A stretch of 64,000 nt of DNA from Escherichia coli. GTDB lineage: Bacteria; Pseudomonadota; Gammaproteobacteria; Enterobacterales; Enterobacteriaceae. The notes under the pieces were generated by a model. The model saw only the letters and a program-made list of their open reading frames with translations, made no database searches and was not told the DNA's origin. The stretch is from assembly GCF_003790525.1 (NCBI RefSeq), contig NZ_CP033635.1, one strand, 5' to 3'. Of the stretch, positions 21,043-62,428 are shown piece after piece. Numbering within the stretch: position 1 is the first letter of the stretch; each line of letters begins with the position of its first letter. A program made the position numbers and the translations under genes.

Positions 21043-22356
<1,314 letters not shown>

Positions 22357-22374: not shown

Positions 22375-22405
22375 CTAAAAAGCGCCTGCGGGCGCTTTTG
22401 CATGG
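22375..22405 (+). terminator. serS terminator hairpin containing the prophage attL core (22385-22399)
   Basis: aaaaagcgcctgcgggcgctttt; CCTGCGGGCGCTTTT repeated at 59774-59788. Confidence 0.7.
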
Positions 22406-22554: not shown

Positions 22555-22782
22555 ATGTTGATGTTGTTTTCCCTTCGCACCAGCTTTAAAGCCACTCTTG
22601 TTAACGATGATGGTACGCCACGGATCACGGCCGAGGTGAGGAATGTGACACCTGATGATATCGGGAAGGTGGCGGAACTTGTCAGGGATGTTTTTGGTAC
22701 TCCTTCCGGTACCTGCCGTTCAGACTCTGCGGCCAGGGTTGACAGGCAGGATGTTAACGCCGGGTGGCTTACGCGCCTCTGA
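22555..22782 (+). CDS. Hypothetical 75-aa protein at the attL end
   Basis: Strong SD GGGAGGGG before the ATG; preceded by a terminator hairpin. Confidence 0.35.
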   Translation: MLMLFSLRTSFKATLVNDDGTPRITAEVRNVTPDDIGKVAELVRDVFGTPSGTCRSDSAARVDRQDVNAGWLTRL

Positions 22783-22932
22783 ATGATGATGCCCTCACTG
22801 GTGAGGGTGACAAAAAAGCCCTCTCAATGGCGGGCAAATCTGGTTTTTTGTTTTGTCTCTACAGGGAAAGGGCGCCATATCGGCCCACCCCAACAACCGG
22901 ATAGCGGGGAATTTCTCCCCCGCTGCGGTTTC

Positions 22933-23073
22933 TTACGGTTTACACTGCAAGAACGCCGCAAAACGCGCTCCCCAGATATCAAAGCTGAATTCACATAACG
23001 AATCGTGGACCATCCAGATGACCAGGGTTATTGTCAGGCATAAAATGCCAACAATAATCGTTTTTTGCGGTAT
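22933..23073 (-). pseudogene. Hok/Gef-family toxin paralog with ATA in the start position
   Basis: Frame gives IPQKTIIVGILCLTITLVIWMVHDSLCEFSFDIWGARFAAFLQCKP; same length and context as the intact copy at 24938-25078. Confidence 0.45.
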
Positions 23074-23173
23074 AGCGCTTGCTCCTTTTACAAAGAGGCG
23101 CTAACCTTCCACTTGTCACGGTAGGAAGGGTCAGGCCTCGGTTAAACACAGATGTTTTCCGGGGCCTTTCCAC
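22991..23173 (-). CDS. Mok-like reading frame overlapping the hok-like ORF
   Basis: ORF overlaps the hok paralog in another frame; paralog of 24945-25178. Confidence 0.3.
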   Translation of the reverse strand: MERPRKTSVFNRGLTLPTVTSGRLAPLCKRSKRYTAKNDYCWHFMPDNNPGHLDGPRFVM

Positions 23174-23283
23174 ATCCGGCCTTCAGGTTTTCCCTCCGGC
23201 CATCAGCCGAAAGGCACCCGTTTCTTTTTGTTGCGGCAATATTTCAGGTGTCAGTTGGGGTGGGCTGTATCTTGTCTGATGCA

Positions 23284-23382
23284 TAAAAAAATGCCCGCGC
23301 TTTGGCGGGCAAAAGACAAGACTTTTCGTTTGTATATCATGGATAATGGACACCCCTTCCTGTTGTCAGGTGGCAGGCACCC
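23284..23382 (-). ncRNA. Candidate small RNA or leader unit X1
   Basis: Minus-strand -35 TTGAGA (23412-23417), 17-bp spacer, -10 TAGATT (23389-23394); ends at hairpin plus U-run. Confidence 0.3.
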
Positions 23383-23486
23383 GTGGTTAATCTACTGTTT
23401 TTGTGCTTTTGTCTCAACCCTGAAGTTTTCATGGAAAATCAGGGTTGCTTCATATGTGCCAGGAAGGTGCGGCTATGATAACTGCC

Positions 23487-23578
23487 AAAAAAAGCCCGCT
23501 TTCCGGCGGGCAAAACAGCAATGTGAGTTGTCTGTCATTGATACTGGACAGCCTTCCTGTTGTCAGGTGGAAGGTACC
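23487..23578 (-). ncRNA. Candidate small RNA or leader unit X2
   Basis: TTGAGA-N17-TAGATT on the minus strand, then terminator. Confidence 0.3.
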
Positions 23579-23930
23579 CGTGGTTAATCTACTGTCTTTG
23601 TGCTTTTGTCTCAACCCTGAAGTTTTCATGGAAAATCAGGGTTGCTTCATGTGAACCAGGAAGGTGAGGCGATGGTAACCGCCAAAAAAATGCCCGCTTT
23701 CCGGCGGGCAAAACAAGGAAGTACGGATCATGTATTATTGATTACGAGGCATTCCACCATGCCCACGTTTAATTTAGCTAGTTTTCATTTTATTCACAAT
23801 ATAGTTACTTATCATATTTATGAACAAAACTGTAATTTCATCTATAGGTATAAGTGATTTGCATTAACATGTTTCTTCTGTATTGCTGTTGGTTTTCCGA
23901 TGCTGATATTTATGATACATTCAGGGGCAA

Positions 23931-24002
23931 ATGAGGTTGTTCCACAGAAACGATGTTGAGATATTTCTGCTCCAGAAAGGACAAGCTAAAAAAATAAAGT
24001 GA
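23931..24002 (+). pseudogene. Disrupted paralog (Y1) of the small protein at 25756-25971
   Basis: MRLFHRNDVEIF... then premature stop; conserved AT-rich upstream region. Confidence 0.3.
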
Positions 24003-24135
24003 AATTATGATATGTCAGGGATGTTCAGGCATGTCAGTGTCTTATTAATAAACTCGTTGCTGCTGTAATAACACCAAAAAAATCAAAGCATAATCTGCAT
24101 GTTGTTCCTGATGACCCAATAACCACAAAAGAATA

Positions 24136-24228
24136 AAAAAATGCCCGCTTTCCGGCGGGCAAAACAGCAATGTGAGTTGTCTGTCATTGATACTGGACAC
24201 CCTTCCTGTTGTCAGGTGGAAGGCACCC
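24136..24228 (-). ncRNA. Candidate small RNA or leader unit X3
   Basis: TTGAGC-N17-TAGATT on the minus strand, then terminator. Confidence 0.3.
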
Positions 24229-24586
24229 GTGGTTAATCTACTGTCTTTGTGCTTTTGGCTCAACCCTGAAGTTTTCATGGAAAATCAGGGCTGCTTTGTG
24301 TGCGCCAGGGAAGGCGCCTCGATGGCAGGCGCAAAAAAAATGCCCGTGCTTCGGCGGGCAAAATAAGGAAGTACAGGTTACATGTTATTGATAAAGTAGC
24401 ATTGCTCTGTCCGTCTTTAATCTAACGAGTTTTGAGTTTTTTCACAATATTGTTACCTGTCATGTTATAGATGAAACTGCAATTTCATCTATAGGTATAA
24501 ATGATTTGTATTAATGTGTGTCCACTGTTTGTCTGCTTTCTGGTTTTCAGTTGACTGTGTTTCTGATGAATTCAGGAGGTTGTCTT

Positions 24587-24685
24587 ATGAGGCTGTTCCA
24601 CAGAAACGATATTGAGATTGAACTGCATTTCTCCTCCGGTGAGGATAAGGTTAAATCATTGTTGATGAAAAAAACAAAGATTTAA
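24587..24685 (+). pseudogene. Truncated paralog (Y2) of the small protein at 25756-25971
   Basis: MRLFHRNDIEIELHFSSGEDKVKS then divergence and stop; SD AGGAGG. Confidence 0.3.
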
Positions 24686-24815
24686 TTTATTGATATAAAG
24701 GATTTGTATCAGCGTATGTCCACGCAGTGACCACATTTTCGAGAGGTAGAGTAAGCCCGCAACATTGCGGGCTTTGTCTTATAGTCTGATCACTGTTTCA
24801 AGTCGGTGAGGACAC

Positions 24816-24852
24816 CAAAAAGAAAACCCGCAGTTTTTATGCTGCGGGTTTG
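24816..24852 (-). terminator. Intrinsic terminator downstream of the hok-like gene
   Basis: Minus strand aaacccgcagcataaaaactgcgggttt plus T-run. Confidence 0.6.
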
Positions 24853-24937
24853 TTGTTCATGTCTGTGAGATAGGGTGCCTTATCGACCTTACCCTGGCAA
24901 CCGATTGACGGGGGATTGCTCCCCCGTCGCGGTTTCC

Positions 24938-25078
24938 TTACTTCTTACATTGTAAGAACGCCGCAAACTCCGCTCCCCAGAAGCTCATCCGTATTTCGCA
25001 CAGCGAACCGTGCAATATCCAGATGATGAGGATTGCCGTCACGCAGAACGTGATGGCCGTAAGCGATTTTTGCGACAT
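24938..25078 (-). CDS. Hok/Gef-family type I toxin homolog (46 aa)
   Basis: MSQKSLTAITFCVTAILIIWILHGSLCEIRMSFWGAEFAAFLQCKK; TM helix plus SLCEIR...AAF as in Hok; SD AAGGAG. Confidence 0.65.
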   Translation of the reverse strand: MSQKSLTAITFCVTAILIIWILHGSLCEIRMSFWGAEFAAFLQCKK

Positions 25079-25178
25079 AGCACTTGCTCCTTTTCCGGAG
25101 AGGCGCTAACCTTTCACTTGTCAAGGTAATGCGGTTAGGGCCTCGGTTAAACAGAAATGTTTTCCGGGGCCTTTCCAC
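24945..25178 (-). CDS. Mok-like reading frame overlapping the hok-like ORF
   Basis: ORF track; overlaps the hok homolog in another frame. Confidence 0.3.
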   Translation of the reverse strand: MERPRKTFLFNRGPNRITLTSERLAPLRKRSKCYVAKIAYGHHVLRDGNPHHLDIARFAVRNTDELLGSGVCGVLTM

Positions 25179-25314
25179 ATCCGGCCTTCAGGTTTTCCCT
25201 CCGGCCATCAGCCGAAAGGCACCCGCGCGTAATTTAACTGTTTCTTTTTGTTGCGGCAATATTTCAGGTGTCAGTTGGGGTGGGCTGTATCTTGTCTGAT
25301 GCATAAAAAAATGC

Positions 25315-25400
25315 CCGCGCTTCGGCGGGCAAAAAACAAGACTTTTCGTTTGTATATCATGGATAATGGACACCCTTCCTGTTGTCAGGGGGAGGTACCC
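25315..25400 (-). ncRNA. Candidate small RNA or leader unit X4
   Basis: -35 and -10 hexamers kept (TTGAGC, TAGATT) while the 17-bp spacer differs from X1-X3. Confidence 0.3.
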
Positions 25401-25755
25401 GTAGCTAATCTACTCACTTTGTGCCCGCAGCTCAACCCTGAAGTTTTCATGGAAAATCAGGGCTGCTTTGTGTGCGCCAGGGAAGGCGCCTCGATGGCAG
25501 GCGCAAAAAAAATGCCCGCTCTCCGGCGGGCAAAACAATGATCTACGTCACATTATATTGATAACCGGGCATTCCTCCATGCCCATTTTTAATTTAGCCA
25601 TTTTTCATTTTGTTCACAATATAGTTATCTATCATATTCATGAATGAAATTATAATTTCATCTATAGGTATAAATGATTTGTGTTAATATGTTTCTCCTG
25701 TCTAACTGTTTTCTCATTTTTCGATACTAGTATTTCTGATATATTCAGGGGGCGT

Positions 25756-25971
25756 ATGAGATTGTTCCGAAGAAACGATATTGAGATTGAACTGCATTTC
25801 TCCTCCGGTGAGGATAAGGTTAAATCAATAAAGGTGAAACTAAGACATGCCCGGGATGTTCAGGCGTGTCAGTGTCTTATTGATGAACTCGTTGCTGCCG
25901 GAGGAACGCCAAAAAAACAAAAATATAATCTGCACGTGGTTCCTGATGACCCCATAACCACAAAAGAATAA
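25756..25971 (+). CDS. Hypothetical small protein (72 aa), intact member of the three-copy 'Y' family
   Basis: MRLFRRNDIEIELHFSSGEDKVKS...; SD AGGGGG; AT-rich upstream region. Confidence 0.45.
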   Translation: MRLFRRNDIEIELHFSSGEDKVKSIKVKLRHARDVQACQCLIDELVAAGGTPKKQKYNLHVVPDDPITTKE

Positions 25972-26113
25972 AAAAATGCCCGCTTTCCGGCGGGCAAAAA
26001 ACAATTTAGGTCATATTTCATCATGGATAATTAAATACTTGCCCGTGGTTGCGGGAAAGTATCTGCCGTTAATCTACTTGCCTTATGATGTCCTCTCAAC
26101 CTGATTATTGTTC

Positions 26114-26365
26114 TTAAATATCAAGATTAATCTGAGTATTCCCCCTGTGAGATCCCGGAAAATCTTCCCACGGTATCCGCTCTGTACCCTGCGGCGACGG
26201 GGCGCGTTTTGATGTGAATTTGTTAAAACCCTCCAGTGTGGTAAAGCCGATCCCGCATTCGAGGTTATTGCACTGGTAGTACTTCAGGCGAACTGTGCCT
26301 GAATCATTTTCATTGCGACTGGTGCGGATACGTGCGGATGCACCGCATAGGGGACAACGGAACAT
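26114..26365 (-). CDS. ogr: Ogr/Delta-type zinc-finger late-gene activator
   Basis: MFRCPLCGASARIRTSR...YYQCNNLEC resembles P2 Ogr C2C2 finger. Confidence 0.85.
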   Translation of the reverse strand: MFRCPLCGASARIRTSRNENDSGTVRLKYYQCNNLECGIGFTTLEGFNKFTSKRAPSPQGTERIPWEDFPGSHRGNTQINLDI

Positions 26366-26408: not shown

Positions 26409-27500
26409 TTATCCGCCTGAATCTGCTATCCATTCGGGGATTTTCGCTTCCAGCTCCAGTTGTGTGGTGAAGCCGCTTTCATCTATGATGTGCTCCACCC
26501 TGGCAATAATCCAGTCCTGATTGTCCACCTCGCTTTTAAAACCTGTTACCCTGCCGTGCATTTCGGGATACAGGTCGGCACGACCCCGTGCCAGAGTGAT
26601 GGAGAATGCCGCTGCTCCCCGCTGTAACTCCTGCCACTTTGCCGCAGCTGCACGTCGTGCGGTTTCTTCATTCTGGTAAGTCCTGCGCAGAACGTAGACG
26701 TTCCCTTCCGCGCCTTCCATGTAATCACCCTCCCGGCTGCTGCTCTTCTCCTGTTTCTGTTTCCCGGCTTCCCTGCGTCGCTTCACGTTCACTTTTTTCT
26801 TGTGCCCGAACTTCAGATCGAGCCAGTGCGCCCGGACCCCCGTATACGCATCACGGTCAGCAATGCGAAAGCGGTGACTGTCGCCGCTGCTGCGGGTAAT
26901 GGCGAACGAAGGCAGGGCTCTTCCGTCCGGCCCGGTTCCGCCACCCGGCAGAATGAATAACAGGCTGCCGTTTTTTACGGTGGCAATCGCACCCAGCATT
27001 TCAGCCATGCGGGTCAGGAAGGATATATCGCTCTCTTCGGTCTGGTCAGCGTGGTCAATTTCGATATCCATGAGGATTTCGCTTATCTGTGTCTTCAGGC
27101 CGTAGCGGTGAGCGATGGCTGACACAACCTGTTTTACGGTCACGTCGTGCCAGGATACCTCCCGCCTCACGTTGAACTCTTCCCGAAAATCTGCGCTGCT
27201 GGCGGTGATGATCAGTTTATCTGGAGGTCCTTCCCACGCAACCTCATCAACGACGTAGGTGCCCTTGTTAACCAGTGATTCTCCTCGCCAGCCAATCATC
27301 ACTCTCAGGCGTGCGCCACGTGGTGGCAACTGTAACTGCCCGTCCGTATCGTCAAGGGTGAGGGTGACGCGGTCTGCCTCAAAGGCCCGGTTATCCGTCA
27401 GGGTCAGCGTCATGAGTCGCTCTGTGAGGTTTGCCAGTGTGTTGTTGTTGATGGTGATGTCGATATCCGGTGACGGAACGGTAACTGACAGCTCTTTCAT
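26409..27500 (-). CDS. D: P2 gpD-like tail protein
   Basis: TLTDNRAFEADRVTLTLDDTDGQ...SWHDVT...REGDYMEGAEGNV resemble P2 D; start at MKELSVT with SD AGGAGA. Confidence 0.85.
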   Translation of the reverse strand: MKELSVTVPSPDIDITINNNTLANLTERLMTLTLTDNRAFEADRVTLTLDDTDGQLQLPPRGARLRVMIGWRGESLVNKGTYVVDEVAWEGPPDKLIITASSADFREEFNVRREVSWHDVTVKQVVSAIAHRYGLKTQISEILMDIEIDHADQTEESDISFLTRMAEMLGAIATVKNGSLLFILPGGGTGPDGRALPSFAITRSSGDSHRFRIADRDAYTGVRAHWLDLKFGHKKKVNVKRRREAGKQKQEKSSSREGDYMEGAEGNVYVLRRTYQNEETARRAAAAKWQELQRGAAAFSITLARGRADLYPEMHGRVTGFKSEVDNQDWIIARVEHIIDESGFTTQLELEAKIPEWIADSGG

Positions 27501-27567
27501 GGTGTTCTCTCCTGGTGCGTTCTGTAATGGTTTCATGCACCGCAGCGGCGTTGAATGGCTGTTTTGT

Positions 27568-54020: not shown

Positions 54021-54245
54021 CTCTGTAGTTGCAAGTTTTGAAAACTCACCATCCAGAGGTTGCAATTCTGGGTGGCGAGACGTACAGGGTTGCAACCACC
54101 GGCAACTACAGAAACCGGCCCGACCGAAGTCGGCCCCATACGCCCCGCCATAATTCTGGCGCGAAAAAGACGTGGCGATACGGTACGCACAAAAAAACCG
54201 CTGGCGCGGTTGTGCGCTGTAGTTGTCAGCGGGGGTTGCAATCCC
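54021..54245. repeat. Cluster of GTTGCAA(C)/TAGTTGCAA motifs in a 320-bp intergenic region
   Basis: Six copies in both orientations at about 54026, 54057, 54087, 54101, 54219 and 54233. Confidence 0.45.
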
Positions 54246-54332
54246 GGCACCCGTTTTATGAGGTGCAGCGGAAATGTAACCTGACTGATTGCGGCATGGC
54301 AAGCGGTTTTTTTGTGTGTGCATAGTGGTTAC

Positions 54333-58682: not shown

Positions 58683-59687
58683 GTGCTGATCATGTCGATT
58701 AAGCAACTCAAAGACGGACGTTATCAGGTTGATGTAAGGCCTCAGGGGGCGGGAGGAAGGCGGATTCGTAAGATTTTCACCCTGAAATCAAAGGCGCAGG
58801 AATTCGAAAGATACGTTCTTCAGAATTTCCACAATAACCCGTGGCAGGCAAGGCCCGCCGATCAACGGCGGTTATCAGAACTGATTGAGGTGTGGTGGAT
58901 GCTTGATGGTCGTAATCAGGCATATGGTGATACCTACAGAACCAGACTGGAGAAGGTGATACGTGAAATGGGGGACCCGCGCGCCAGCCAGATGACACGA
59001 AAATTCGTGATTGAGTATCGCTCGGATAAGTTGCAGGCGGGACTGATGCCGTCCAGTATCAATCGCGACCTGTGCGCCTTATCTGCGATGTTTTCGTTGT
59101 TAATTGACGCGGAGGTTTATCATAACGAAAACCCTGTGCGCGGAATACGTAAACTCAAGGTTCAGAATACAGAAATGGCCTTTCTTTCAGATGACGAGAT
59201 TGATCGCCTTCTGAAACGGCTTGAGGGTGATGCACGACGCATTGCCATTCTGTGCCTTTCGACCGGGGCCAGATGGAAAGAGGCGTCAACGCTTCGCGGG
59301 GAACACATCGTGGGTAACAGGGTGACGTTCTTTAACACAAAGAACGGGAAATCGCGCTCGGTTCCTGTAGCTGATTCCGTTGTGCCGTTAATTAAAACCC
59401 GCCGGACCGGCCTGTTATATCAGGTTGATTATCTCAGTTTCAGGGAGATCCTTCAGGAGGTGAAGCCCGACTTACCCAAAGGGCAGGCCACGCATGTCAT
59501 GCGGCACACGTTCGCCACGCATTTCATGATGAACGGCGGGAACATCGTCACGTTGCAGAGGATCCTGGGTCACGCCACGATTCAGCAAACGATGACGTAT
59601 GCGCATTTTTCACCGGACTTTTTACAGGATGCGATCAGCTTTAATCCGCTGGCTGAAAGTGTCCATAAACTGTCCATCGACCAGTAA
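58683..59687 (+). CDS. int: Tyrosine integrase (P2 Int-like)
   Basis: KQLKDGRYQVDVRP...AILCLSTGARW...HVMRHTFATHF...LGHATIQQTMTYAHF close to P2 Int. Confidence 0.9.
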   Translation: MLIMSIKQLKDGRYQVDVRPQGAGGRRIRKIFTLKSKAQEFERYVLQNFHNNPWQARPADQRRLSELIEVWWMLDGRNQAYGDTYRTRLEKVIREMGDPRASQMTRKFVIEYRSDKLQAGLMPSSINRDLCALSAMFSLLIDAEVYHNENPVRGIRKLKVQNTEMAFLSDDEIDRLLKRLEGDARRIAILCLSTGARWKEASTLRGEHIVGNRVTFFNTKNGKSRSVPVADSVVPLIKTRRTGLLYQVDYLSFREILQEVKPDLPKGQATHVMRHTFATHFMMNGGNIVTLQRILGHATIQQTMTYAHFSPDFLQDAISFNPLAESVHKLSIDQ

Positions 59688-59773
59688 TTATTTGTGATAA
59701 TTTGCTCCCCTTGTTTTTGTTTACTTATTGAAAAATAAGGAAATCAGCAAGAGGAGTAAGTACCGTTAAATCT

Positions 59774-59788
59774 CCTGCGGGCGCTTTT
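59774..59788. other. attR core CCTGCGGGCGCTTTT
   Basis: Identical 15-mer at 22385-22399. Confidence 0.7.
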
Positions 59789-59983
59789 TTTGTCTCCCTT
59801 TGATACCGAACAATAATTACTCCTCACTTACACGTAATACTACTTTCGAGTGAAAATCTACCTATCTCTTTGATTTTCAAATTATTCGATATATACAAGC
59901 CTATATAGCGACCTGCTATAGAAATAATTACACAATACGGTTTGTTACTGGAATCAATCGTGAGCAAGCTTGAGTGAGCCATT

Positions 59984-62428
59984 ATGAAAACGAAAATCCC
60001 TGATGCGGTATTGGCTGCTGAGGTGAGTCGCCGTGGTTTGGTAAAAACGACAGCGATCGGCGGCCTGGCAATGGCCAGCAGCGCATTAACATTACCTTTT
60101 AGTCGGATTGCGCACGCTGTTGATAGTGCCCTTCCGGCAAAGTCAGACGAAAAGGTAATCTGGAGCGCCTGTACAGTTAACTGTGGTAGCCGCTGCCCGC
60201 TACGTATGCACGTTGTGGACGGTGAAATTAAATATGTTGAAACGGATAATACCGGCGATGACAACTATGACGGCCTGCACCAGGTGCGCGCCTGTCTGCG
60301 TGGGCGTTCCATGCGTCGCCGTGTCTACAATCCGGACCGCCTGAAATATCCGATGAAACGAGTCGGGGCGCGCGGTGAAGGCAAATTCGAGCGCATTAGC
60401 TGGGAAGAAGCCTACGACATCATCGCGACCAATATGCAGCGCCTGATCAAAGAGTACGGCAACGAGTCTATCTATCTGAACTATGGTACCGGTACGCTGG
60501 GCGGCACCATGACCCGCTCCTGGCCGCCGGGAAATACCCTGGTCGCTCGCCTGATGAACTGCTGCGGCGGTTATCTGAACCATTACGGTGACTACTCTTC
60601 CGCGCAAATTGCGGAAGGTTTGAACTATACCTACGGCGGCTGGGCAGATGGTAACAGCCCGTCGGATATCGAAAACAGTAAACTGGTAGTGCTGTTTGGT
60701 AATAACCCTGGCGAAACGCGAATGAGTGGCGGTGGGGTGACTTACTATCTTGAACAGGCGCGCCAGAAATCTAATGCTCGCATGATCATCATCGATCCGC
60801 GCTATACCGACACCGGTGCCGGGCGCGAAGATGAGTGGATCCCTATTCGTCCGGGAACAGATGCCGCACTGGTTAACGGTCTGGCGTATGTCATGATCAC
60901 CGAAAACCTGGTGGATCAGGCATTCCTCGATAAATATTGCGTTGGCTACGACGAGAAAACACTGCCAGCCAGTGCGCCGAAAAATGGTCACTATAAAGCT
61001 TATATTCTGGGTGAAGGGCCAGATGGCGTGGCTAAAACGCCGGAATGGGCCTCGCAAATCACTGGTGTTCCGGCAGACAAAATCATCAAATTGGCTCGTG
61101 AAATCGGTAGTACCAAACCGGCGTTTATCAGCCAGGGATGGGGCCCGCAGCGTCACGCTAACGGTGAAATCGCAACCCGTGCTATCTCGATGCTGGCGAT
61201 TCTGACCGGTAACGTTGGTATTAACGGAGGCAACAGCGGCGCGCGTGAAGGTTCATACAGCTTACCGTTTGTCCGTATGCCGACCCTCGAAAACCCGATC
61301 CAGACCAGCATTTCGATGTTTATGTGGACCGATGCCATTGAACGTGGCCCGGAAATGACAGCGCTGCGTGATGGTGTGCGCGGGAAAGATAAGCTGGATG
61401 TGCCGATCAAAATGATCTGGAACTATGCCGGTAACTGCCTGATTAATCAGCATTCTGAAATCAACCGTACCCATGAAATCCTTCAGGATGATAAGAAGTG
61501 CGAGCTGATTGTGGTTATCGACTGCCACATGACCTCATCGGCGAAATATGCTGACATCCTGCTGCCTGACTGCACCGCTTCAGAACAGATGGACTTTGCA
61601 CTGGATGCATCCTGCGGGAATATGTCTTACGTGATTTTCAACGATCAGGTGATTAAACCGCGCTTTGAATGTAAGACCATCTATGAAATGACCAGCGAAC
61701 TGGCAAAACGTCTTGGCGTTGAGCAACAATTTACTGAGGGCCGTACCCAGGAAGAGTGGATGCGGCATCTGTATGCCCAGTCGCGGGAAGCGATTCCTGA
61801 ACTGCCAACGTTTGAAGAGTTCCGTAAGCAGGGGATCTTTAAAAAGCGCGACCCACAAGGGCATCACGTTGCTTATAAAGCTTTCCGTGAAGATCCGCAG
61901 GCAAATCCACTGACCACGCCATCGGGGAAAATTGAGATTTATTCGCAGGCGCTGGCTGACATTGCCGCGACCTGGGAATTGCCAGAAGGTGATGTGATCG
62001 ATCCACTGCCGATCTACACGCCGGGCTTTGAAAGTTATCAGGATCCGCTGAACAAACAGTATCCGCTGCAGCTTACGGGTTTCCACTATAAATCTCGCGT
62101 TCACTCAACTTACGGCAACGTTGATGTGCTGAAAGCAGCTTGCCGTCAGGAAATGTGGATCAACCCGCTTGATGCGCAAAAACGCGGTATCAACAACGGC
62201 GATAAAGTCAGGATCTTTAACGATCGTGGTGAGGTTCATATTGAGGCGAAAGTGACGCCACGAATGATGCCGGGTGTGGTCGCACTGGGTGAAGGTGCCT
62301 GGTATGACCCGGATACAAAACGTGTCGATAAGGGCGGTTGTATCAACGTACTGACCACTCAACGTCCGTCTCCTCTCGCTAAGGGGAATCCGTCACATAC
62401 AAACCTTGTTCAGGTTGAAAAGGTGTAA
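59984..62428 (+). CDS. dmsA: DMSO reductase catalytic subunit
   Basis: Tat signal, Cys cluster, 814 aa. Confidence 0.95.
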   Translation: MKTKIPDAVLAAEVSRRGLVKTTAIGGLAMASSALTLPFSRIAHAVDSALPAKSDEKVIWSACTVNCGSRCPLRMHVVDGEIKYVETDNTGDDNYDGLHQVRACLRGRSMRRRVYNPDRLKYPMKRVGARGEGKFERISWEEAYDIIATNMQRLIKEYGNESIYLNYGTGTLGGTMTRSWPPGNTLVARLMNCCGGYLNHYGDYSSAQIAEGLNYTYGGWADGNSPSDIENSKLVVLFGNNPGETRMSGGGVTYYLEQARQKSNARMIIIDPRYTDTGAGREDEWIPIRPGTDAALVNGLAYVMITENLVDQAFLDKYCVGYDEKTLPASAPKNGHYKAYILGEGPDGVAKTPEWASQITGVPADKIIKLAREIGSTKPAFISQGWGPQRHANGEIATRAISMLAILTGNVGINGGNSGAREGSYSLPFVRMPTLENPIQTSISMFMWTDAIERGPEMTALRDGVRGKDKLDVPIKMIWNYAGNCLINQHSEINRTHEILQDDKKCELIVVIDCHMTSSAKYADILLPDCTASEQMDFALDASCGNMSYVIFNDQVIKPRFECKTIYEMTSELAKRLGVEQQFTEGRTQEEWMRHLYAQSREAIPELPTFEEFRKQGIFKKRDPQGHHVAYKAFREDPQANPLTTPSGKIEIYSQALADIAATWELPEGDVIDPLPIYTPGFESYQDPLNKQYPLQLTGFHYKSRVHSTYGNVDVLKAACRQEMWINPLDAQKRGINNGDKVRIFNDRGEVHIEAKVTPRMMPGVVALGEGAWYDPDTKRVDKGGCINVLTTQRPSPLAKGNPSHTNLVQVEKV

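What the first reader, a model, noticed from the sequence alone, without database searches (positions are those of the whole stretch)
22933..25178. Two Hok/Mok-like toxin loci, one intact and one with ATA replacing the start codon
The 46-aa ORF at 24938-25078 has the Hok signature (TM helix, SLCEIR, AAF) and an overlapping mok-like frame. The paralog at 22933-23073 has the same length and frame, but ATA occupies the start position, so it may be a silenced copy. Type I toxins of this kind can stabilise a prophage or contribute to phage exclusion.
Basis: partly seen in the sequence, partly recalled or inferred. Interest (0 to 1): 0.6.

Follow-up and report, generated by a model that had tools for sequence, protein, structure and literature searches.

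The report
Two prophage Hok toxin genes, one dead
A P2-like prophage inserted next to serS in E. coli carries two small Hok-type membrane-toxin genes: one is intact and already annotated, the other has lost its start codon and promoter, so this is an ordinary, already catalogued case.

Summary
Window 24938-25078(-) encodes a 46-aa Hok/Gef toxin (Pfam PF01848 E 9.8e-7; phrog_251 E 8.5e-22). RefSeq already annotates it as "Hok/Gef family protein" WP_000078913.1. It differs at 2 of 46 residues from peptide 72_1621, which was in the toxicity test set of Escalera-Maurer et al. (bioRxiv 10.1101/2025.08.07.668861). The paralog at 22933-23073(-) shares 52% residues with it and has ATA where 64 other unique homologous loci have ATG. 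Copy A also lacks 15 bp that hold the hok promoter -10 box and has a weakened terminator, so the toxin gene has decayed. This start-less peptide is already in that preprint's catalogue (entry 1833). Both loci have a hok-type leader (Rfam sok model, E about 1e-8, below the gathering score) and a predicted 5'-3' fold-back. Both also keep a conserved antisense promoter and hairpin, predicted Sok-like RNAs at about 25120-25178(+) and 23115-23173(+). The mok-like frame exists in both copies but is not conserved among relatives. The loci lie in the cargo region between ogr and the att site of a P2-like prophage integrated in the serS terminator. They are interleaved with unannotated sRNA-like repeats. 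Already known; low interest.

The parts
24938..25078 (-). hok copy B: intact 46-aa Hok/Gef toxin CDS with an ATG start and SD AAAGGAG 7 nt upstream
   Evidence: RefSeq WP_000078913.1
24815..25224 (-). predicted full-length hok-B mRNA. The 5' end is taken from the start of the Rfam hok-leader model; the 3' end follows the terminator hairpin at 24824-24851
   Evidence: MFE -181.2 kcal/mol, z -9.5
25231..25259 (-). predicted hok-B promoter: -35 TTGCCG (25254-25259), 17-nt spacer, -10 TAAATT (25231-25236), +1 G at 25224
   Evidence: read from the sequence; a -10 hexamer of form TA.A.T is present at this position in 72 of 75 homologous loci
24873..24888 (-). fbi-like 3' element (GGUCGAUAAGGCACCC) that pairs with the mRNA 5' end (25210-25224) in the predicted fold
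25084..25178 (+). predicted Sok-like antisense gene B: -35 TTGCTC (25084-25089), 17-nt spacer, -10 TAACCT (25107-25112), RNA about 25120-25178 with a roughly 17-nt single-stranded 5' tail, a GGCCUCGG/CCGGGGCC hairpin and a UUUCC tail
   Evidence: no expression data
24945..25178 (-). mok-like overlapping frame of copy B (77 codons, GTG start); not conserved in relatives
22933..23073 (-). hok copy A: otherwise open 46-codon Hok frame with ATA (23071-23073) in place of ATG; decayed toxin gene
22808..23219 (-). copy A equivalent of the hok mRNA. A 15-bp deletion lies directly upstream (junction 23219/23220) and removes the -10 box. The fbi-like element is at 22870-22885. The terminator (about 22818-22835) is imperfect compared with the intact A-type allele in L005
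23079..23173 (+). predicted Sok-like antisense gene A, apparently intact: -35 TTGCTC (23079-23084), -10 TAACCT (23102-23107), RNA about 23115-23173
22991..23173 (-). mok-like frame of copy A (60 codons)
22385..22399 (.). att core CCTGCGGGCGCTTTT in the serS terminator, repeated at 59774-59788; the two copies bound the inserted P2-like element that carries both hok loci

Best explanation
The region holds two hok/sok-type type I toxin-antitoxin loci. They lie in the accessory (moron) region between ogr and the attachment site of a P2-like (Peduoviridae) prophage that is integrated in the serS terminator of E. coli.

Copy B is intact. A roughly 410-nt mRNA is predicted from a TTGCCG-17-TAAATT promoter. 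In the predicted fold its 5' end pairs with an fbi-like element near the 3' end, so the full-length transcript would be translationally inert, as in hok of plasmid R1. A constitutive cis-antisense Sok-like RNA of about 59 nt is predicted opposite nt 49-105 of the leader. It would block expression of the 46-aa membrane toxin. If the antisense RNA is lost, for example when the prophage is lost, transcription shuts off or the prophage is induced, the toxin is made and damages the inner membrane.

Copy A belongs to a different Hok cluster (52% identity). It was probably brought in by recombination with another P2-like phage lineage. Its toxin gene has decayed: ATG became ATA, the -10 box is deleted and the terminator is weakened. 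Its antisense promoter and hairpin are unchanged.

Shown here: family membership, the lesions in copy A, the location inside the prophage, and the predicted folds. Inferred: transcript ends, regulation by the antisense RNA, and the biological role.
For: Family membership: Pfam HOK_GEF; phrog_251 'MokW-like host killing'; RefSeq annotation of copy B; Rfam sok/hok-leader model over its full length at E about 1e-8 in both copies.

Toxicity of the family: peptide 72_1621 in Table S2 of 10.1101/2025.08.07.668861 differs from copy B at 2 of 46 residues and was in the tested set. Only 19_179, 60_1482 and 69_1540 were reported non-toxic.

Fold-back: the MFE structure of the 410-nt copy B RNA pairs nt 1-15 with nt 343-358 (z -9.5). 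The alifold consensus of 28 relatives keeps the terminal 5'-3' pairs and shows 16 pairs with compensatory changes elsewhere.

Antisense gene: the -10 TAACCT is 100% conserved and the -35 is 95% conserved, while the stretch opposite the antisense 5' tail is the most variable part of the leader. The promoter pair is found in 74 of 75 loci. The hairpin with a single-stranded tail is predicted in both copies.

Decay of copy A: ATA versus ATG in 64 loci, and the -10 box missing only in this allele. The intact A-type allele P0002 (ATG, -10 present, perfect terminator) lies at the same position in P2-like prophages at the copA site.

Prophage context: att repeats; the chromosomal backbone ends 43 nt after serS; homologous single hok loci sit between gpD/ogr and att in phages P88, Chuche and 500465-2.
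Against: There is no expression or toxicity data for these exact alleles.

The Rfam matches fall below the family's gathering score. NCBIfam Hok models score far below their cut-offs (21-40 bits against 73-89).

The mok reading frame, essential in the R1 paradigm, is not conserved in this subfamily, so control of translation may differ from R1.

The 5' end is nearly invariant in my sample because I collected relatives with an exact leader pattern, so the 5'-3' helix itself shows almost no covariation.

The Sok-like hexamers match the sigma-70 consensus at only 3 of 6 positions each and were not picked up by the consensus scan. Part of their conservation could come from overlap with the hok SD.

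Chromosomal hok loci of K-12 are reported as unable to mediate post-segregational killing (cited in the preprint).
Confidence: 0.85

Rival explanations
1. Copy A is not dead but attenuated. It is transcribed from a weak substitute promoter (CTGACA-17-ACAAAA) or by read-through, and is translated at a low level from ATA behind its strong SD. It would then be a low-dose toxin.
For: The 46-codon frame is otherwise open, with an intact SD. One TPA assembly annotates this same allele as a Hok/Gef protein beginning with M at the ATA (P0001/L011). The fold-back with the fbi element is still predicted.
Against: Three independent lesions all hit toxin expression: the start codon, the -10 box and the terminator. 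All other loci keep these features. The R1 terminator lies directly upstream and should block read-through. From general knowledge, ATA initiates at about 1% of ATG or less in E. coli. RefSeq PGAP leaves the locus unannotated in complete genomes.
Confidence: 0.08
2. Copy A persists as an orphan antitoxin gene. Its Sok-like RNA is still made and modulates copy B or incoming related hok loci (anti-addiction or cross-immunity).
For: The antisense promoter hexamers and hairpin of copy A are identical to those of functional relatives. The hairpin part is nearly identical to that of copy B, and the predicted heterologous duplex is still strong at -89 kcal/mol.
Against: The 5' tail, which from knowledge of R1 Sok nucleates pairing, differs at 8 of 21 positions from that of copy B. 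Tail-only duplex energy falls from about -41 to -45 kcal/mol (cognate) to about -21 (heterologous). Retention may simply mean the decay is recent, since the allele is confined to about 26 complete genomes.
Confidence: 0.12
3. Copy B is also functionally silent in its native context, like the chromosomal hok loci of E. coli K-12. It would be carried as neutral cargo with no role in prophage maintenance, exclusion or lysis.
For: Chromosomal hokA, hokB and hokC loci were reported as unable to mediate post-segregational killing (cited in 10.1101/2025.08.07.668861). No mok frame is conserved here.
Against: All sequence elements are intact and conserved across about 70 phage and prophage loci. hok genes are enriched four-fold in prophages. 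A different prophage hok locus, hokW-sokW, has a measured effect on lysis and phage release (PMC8621323).
Confidence: 0.25

Closest known systems
Hok 60%-identity cluster 72 of Escalera-Maurer et al. (bioRxiv 10.1101/2025.08.07.668861): peptides 72_1621 (P88/Chuche type) and 72_1589 (933W/Sp5 type, next to lom)
   Same: Copy B matches 72_1621 at 44 of 46 residues. It has the same 46-aa length, the same SD and leader, and the same position in P2-like phages between gpD/ogr and att.
   Different: Two substitutions (M21I, Q46K). Here it sits in a two-locus islet with a member of another cluster.
hok/sok of plasmid R1 (the type I TA paradigm; Pfam PF01848, Rfam RF01794)
   Same: A small TM toxin with the LCE motif and conserved cysteines; a leader alignable to the Rfam model; a predicted 5'-3' fold-back; a cis-antisense gene opposite the leader with a tail-plus-hairpin shape.
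   Different: 46 aa rather than 52 aa. The Rfam score is below gathering. No conserved mok frame. Carried by a prophage rather than a plasmid.
HokA (NCBIfam NF007290)
   Same: It is the best-scoring NCBIfam model for both copies. From my own recollection of the HokA sequence, it shares the MPQK N-terminus and the DSLCE...AAFL.CK pattern with copy A.
   Different: Scores of 30.7 and 39.5 bits against a cut-off of 89, so neither copy is a HokA equivalog.
hokW-sokW of Sakai prophage 5 (Takada et al. 2021, PMC8621323)
   Same: A prophage-borne hok/sok locus. The PHROG label 'MokW-like host killing' is applied to both. It shows experimentally that a prophage hok can aid lysis and phage release.
   Different: HokW is a different paralog: 51 aa, beginning MKQQKAM according to primer YO-357, with a leader GCGGGTGCTTGAGGC. 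The window's homolog in 933W/Sp5 is a separate locus next to lom.
Inactivated chromosomal hok loci (E. coli K-12 hokA-E; start-less entries in the Hok catalogue)
   Same: Copy A is a hok locus disabled by small lesions. The identical start-less peptide is entry 1833 in Files S1 and S3 of the preprint.
   Different: From my knowledge of Pedersen and Gerdes 1999, the K-12 loci are mostly hit by IS elements or point mutations. Here the lesions are a start-codon change plus a 15-bp promoter deletion, and the antisense gene is untouched.

Membership tests
Hok/Gef toxin family (Pfam PF01848; phrog_251) | Peptide of about 50 aa matching the family profile, with an N-terminal hydrophobic helix and the conserved residues C16, T18, L30-C31-E32, E41 and C/Y48 (numbering of the logo in 10.1101/2025.08.07.668861) | tested here: met
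   Pfam E 9.8e-7 (B) and 1e-4 (A); phrog_251 E 8.5e-22 and 2.1e-17. B has C12, T14, L26-C27-E28, E37 and C44. A has all of these except R in place of E37, a substitution shared with the intact A-type allele P0002.
hok/sok type I TA locus (R1 paradigm) | hok-type mRNA leader (Rfam RF01794 model) | tested here: inconclusive
   Full-length matches at 48.1 and 46.2 bits (E 6.7e-9 and 2.1e-8), below the gathering score of 59; no hit at the gathering threshold.
hok/sok type I TA locus (R1 paradigm) | Fold-back inhibition: the 5' end (tac) pairs with a 3' fbi element in the full-length mRNA | tested here: met
   Prediction only. The MFE of copy B pairs nt 1-15 with nt 343-358 (z -9.5). Copy A keeps the pairing with one U-G wobble. 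The consensus fold of 28 relatives keeps the terminal pairs, and L010 has a C-G where others have U-A or U-G.
hok/sok type I TA locus (R1 paradigm) | mok: an upstream-initiated frame overlapping hok, needed for hok translation | tested here: not met
   Frames of 77 and 60 codons exist in B and A. In most of the 66 relatives no frame with an upstream start codon spans the hok start; P88 has 21 codons and 933W has 24.
hok/sok type I TA locus (R1 paradigm) | Sok: a short cis-antisense RNA with its own promoter opposite the leader | tested here: inconclusive
   TTGCTC-17-TAACCT on the plus strand is conserved in 74 of 75 loci. The predicted RNA has a single-stranded tail and a stable hairpin. The consensus promoter scan did not flag it. 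There are no transcript data.
hok/sok type I TA locus (R1 paradigm) | Toxicity of the peptide and neutralisation by the antisense RNA; post-segregational killing | not testable with these tools
   Indirect only: the near-identical peptide 72_1621 was among homologs tested for toxicity, and it is not one of the three reported as non-toxic.
HokA equivalog (NCBIfam NF007290) | Whole-protein score at or above the curated cut-off of 89 bits | tested here: not met
   30.7 bits (B) and 39.5 bits (A).
HokW of Sp5 (PMC8621323) | Orthology to the 51-aa HokW (MKQQKAM...) and its leader | tested here: not met
   The primer sequences in the paper give a different N-terminus and 5' leader. The window's homolog in 933W is a separate locus near lom.

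The most novel reading that the evidence does not exclude
The islet is more than one live and one dead toxin gene; it is a small-RNA array. In this reading copy A is kept as a Sok-only antitoxin gene, because all three lesions hit the toxin side and none hits the antisense gene. The five interleaved R units would be real sRNA genes derived from hok promoters and 5' ends. Together they would tune copy B or neutralise related hok loci on incoming phages and plasmids.
Probability: 0.08. Interest if true: 0.45.

Novelty: already known. Interest (0 to 1): 0.12.

Why it matters
The finding matters little beyond annotation. It adds one unannotated decayed hok locus and predicted coordinates for two Sok-like RNAs in a P2-like prophage carried by about 26 complete E. 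coli genomes.

Two minor points may be useful. First, this is a two-cluster hok islet, which the Hok survey reports as rare: 98% of islets hold only one 60%-identity cluster. It appears to have arisen by recombination between phage cargo regions, not by local duplication. Second, the 46-aa subfamily seems to lack a conserved mok frame, so its translational control may differ from the R1 model.

Tried and rejected
- **Rfam at gathering thresholds** gave nothing in the region. Only the sub-threshold sok matches are meaningful; the other E-value hits (RyhB, AgvB, Trp leader and so on) sit on the repeated terminators and are chance.
- **PADLOC** gave no hit for either Hok, the 71-aa ORF or the 75-aa ORF.
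- **P0001 as an ATG-bearing allele of copy A:** rejected. Its contig L011 carries the same ATA and the same 15-bp deletion.
- **The window loci as orthologs of the studied hokW-sokW:** rejected on the primer sequences.
- **mok as a family feature:** rejected.
- **A coding reading of the R units on the plus strand:** rejected, because a 1-nt indel between units breaks the frame (read).
- **Targets of the conserved R-unit motif UUAUCCAUGAU within the window:** none found other than the units' own opposite strand.
- **R and S modules in the phage collection:** no match.
- **Covariation for the tac-fbi helix:** uninformative, because the 5' end is nearly invariant in a sample collected with an exact leader pattern.

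Full report
**Where the loci are.** The window is E. coli. serS lies at 21064-22356(+) and dmsA starts at 59984. The conserved chromosome ends 43 nt after serS in 5,419 of 5,426 complete genomes. A 15-bp core, CCTGCGGGCGCTTTT, lies in the serS terminator at 22385-22399 and recurs at 59774-59788. The DNA between the two copies is a P2-like prophage: ogr at 26114-26365(-), gpD at 26409-27536(-), and an integrase at 58683-59687(+). The finding lies in the 3.7 kb between att and ogr. That whole stretch is present at 99.8% identity or more in only 23 complete E. coli genomes; 26 have at least 80% of it.

**Checking the observation.** Copy A begins with ATA. The two proteins are 52% identical. Both match Pfam HOK_GEF (E 9.8e-7 and 1e-4) and phrog_251, "MokW-like host killing" (E 8.5e-22 and 2.1e-17). 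NCBIfam Hok models match far below their cut-offs, so neither copy is a HokA equivalog. RefSeq annotates copy B as Hok/Gef family protein WP_000078913.1 and leaves copy A unannotated.

**RNA anatomy.** The Rfam sok model in fact describes the sense hok leader from +1 to the hok AUG. It matches both loci over its full length on the hok strand, at 23062-23219 and 25065-25224. The E-values are about 1e-8 and the scores (48.1 and 46.2 bits) are below the gathering score of 59.

I took 25224 as +1. A TTGCCG-17-TAAATT promoter then sits at the right distance. The 410-nt RNA ending after the terminator at 24824-24851 folds with nt 1-15 paired to nt 343-358, at -181 kcal/mol and z -9.5. This is the fold-back arrangement known from hok of plasmid R1.

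I collected relatives from IMG/VR with the invariant leader word GATGTGGAAAGGCCCCG. Together with the loci fetched earlier, this gave 75 unique loci. A consensus fold of 28 representatives keeps the terminal pairs and shows 16 pairs with compensatory changes in internal helices. The 5' end itself is nearly invariant in this sample, so the fold-back helix is supported by prediction rather than covariation.

On the opposite strand, TTGCTC-17-TAACCT is conserved in 74 of 75 loci. The -10 is invariant, while the leader stretch opposite the predicted antisense 5' tail is the most variable part of the leader. That pattern is what one expects where specificity resides. The predicted RNAs, at about 25120-25178 and 23115-23173 on the plus strand, have a single-stranded tail followed by a stable hairpin. 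The hexamers are weak by consensus and the promoter scan missed them. Their resemblance to the R1 Sok promoter rests on my memory of that sequence.

**mok.** Both copies have a frame that starts at a GTG in the leader and overlaps hok. In P88, 933W and most other relatives this frame closes after 14-24 codons. No other frame with an upstream start codon spans the hok start. I therefore do not count mok as a feature of this subfamily. The hok ORF has its own strong SD.

**Copy A is decayed.**
- Among the 75 loci, 64 have ATG. Only the window allele and its twin in L011 have ATA.
- The same two loci are the only genuine homologs that lack the -10 hexamer. A 15-bp deletion at 23219/23220 removes it.
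- The terminator is imperfect compared with the intact A-type allele.
- That intact allele, P0002, has ATG, the -10 box and a good terminator, and was seen on 119 contigs. It occupies the same position in P2-like prophages integrated next to copA.
- P0001, which looked like an ATG version, is the same ATA allele called with M.
- The antisense promoter and hairpin of copy A are untouched.
- The tail of the copy A antisense RNA differs from that of copy B at 8 of 21 positions. Predicted tail pairing drops from about -41 to -45 kcal/mol (cognate) to about -21 (heterologous). Cross-regulation is therefore possible but not favoured.

**Origin of the pair.** Copy B and its 3' flank match P88, Chuche and 500465-2 at 90-93% identity. 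In those phages a single hok sits between gpD/ogr and att. A 146-bp piece at 24653-24798 matches the segment beside the integrase in Chuche. The rest of the region is collinear with the A-type prophage L005. The leaders upstream of +1 are 99% identical between A and B, while the coding parts are about 70% identical. The islet therefore looks like a recombinant of two phage cargo regions, probably through the shared repeats, and not like a local duplication.

**What is already known.**
- The Hok survey by Escalera-Maurer et al. (10.1101/2025.08.07.668861) reports hok enrichment in prophages. It finds that 3.5% of hok-bearing phages have two copies, that 10% of hok genes lie in islets, and that 98% of islets hold a single cluster.
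- Its Table S2 lists 72_1621, which matches copy B at 44 of 46 residues, and 72_1589, the 933W type, among the tested homologs. Neither is one of the three reported as non-toxic.
- Its alignments contain the exact start-less copy A peptide as entry 1833.
- The experimentally studied hokW-sokW of Sp5 is a different 51-aa paralog. The window's homolog in 933W is a separate, originally unannotated locus next to lom.

**Verdict.** The observation and its interpretation hold, with the corrections on mok and on the antisense coordinates, and with the added promoter deletion in copy A. This is a known kind of element and both peptides are already catalogued. Interest is low. The unannotated sRNA-like R repeats in the same stretch are the only part that may deserve a separate look.

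Noticed in passing
window 23285-23490, 23482-23690, 24131-24340, 25303-25512, 25965-26113 (minus strand): Five copies of a roughly 200-nt unit that looks like an sRNA gene. Each has a palindrome CAACCCTGA-N15-TCAGGGTTG overlapping a -35 TTGAGA, a 17-nt spacer and a -10 TAGATT. A transcribed part of about 95 nt follows, with a 5' stem-loop (compensatory CCTG/CAGG to CCCG/CGGG in the ogr-side copy), an A/U-rich single-stranded stretch (UUAUCCAUGAU in three copies) and a GCCCGCC..GCGGGC-U7 terminator. There are three subtypes. The promoter and 5' end resemble those of hok (TAGATTA..GGGTGCCTT). No Rfam family matches. The units are rare: 30 of 5,426 complete E. coli genomes, 3 IMG/VR contigs and no deposited phage.
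   Followed up: partly
window 25756-25971(+); truncated copies at 23931-24002(+) and 24589-24687(+): A small ORF beginning MRLF(R/H)RNDIEIELHFSSGEDKVKS... is repeated three times. Only the ogr-proximal copy is intact (71 aa, WP_001236182.1 hypothetical; phrog_14142, unknown function, E 4.9e-12). As with hok, the copies further from ogr are the degraded ones.
   Followed up: partly
window 24653-24798: A 146-bp segment in the middle of the islet matches, at about 90% identity, the sequence beside the integrase/att region of phages Chuche and 500465-2. This suggests that the copy B module arrived with the end of a different P2-like phage.
   Followed up: partly
window 22555-22782(+): A 75-aa ORF lies between att and hok copy A. 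A 73-aa gene is called at the same position in the copA-site prophages (L005-L010). It has no PHROG or PADLOC match.
   Followed up: no
window 54068-54155(-) and 54191-54266(-); 59759-59893(-): A C4 antisense RNA (80 bits) and an isrK-like RNA (60 bits) lie in the early region of the prophage. STnc130 (127 bits) lies just outside the right att, upstream of dmsA.
   Followed up: no
L012 (phage 933W, AF125520.1 about 45.4-45.9 kb, between lom and L0129): 933W and Sp5 carry a 46-aa hok locus of this subfamily with a full leader and fbi element. It has no CDS in the original 933W record and is distinct from the studied hokW.
   Followed up: partly
L011 (GCA_043158805.1 contig DAYGSF010000073.1): A TPA annotation calls the ATA-start copy A allele as a Hok/Gef protein beginning with M. 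Other assemblies call only the 26-aa internal-ATG fragment (P0003). Annotation of this pseudogene is therefore inconsistent.
   Followed up: yes
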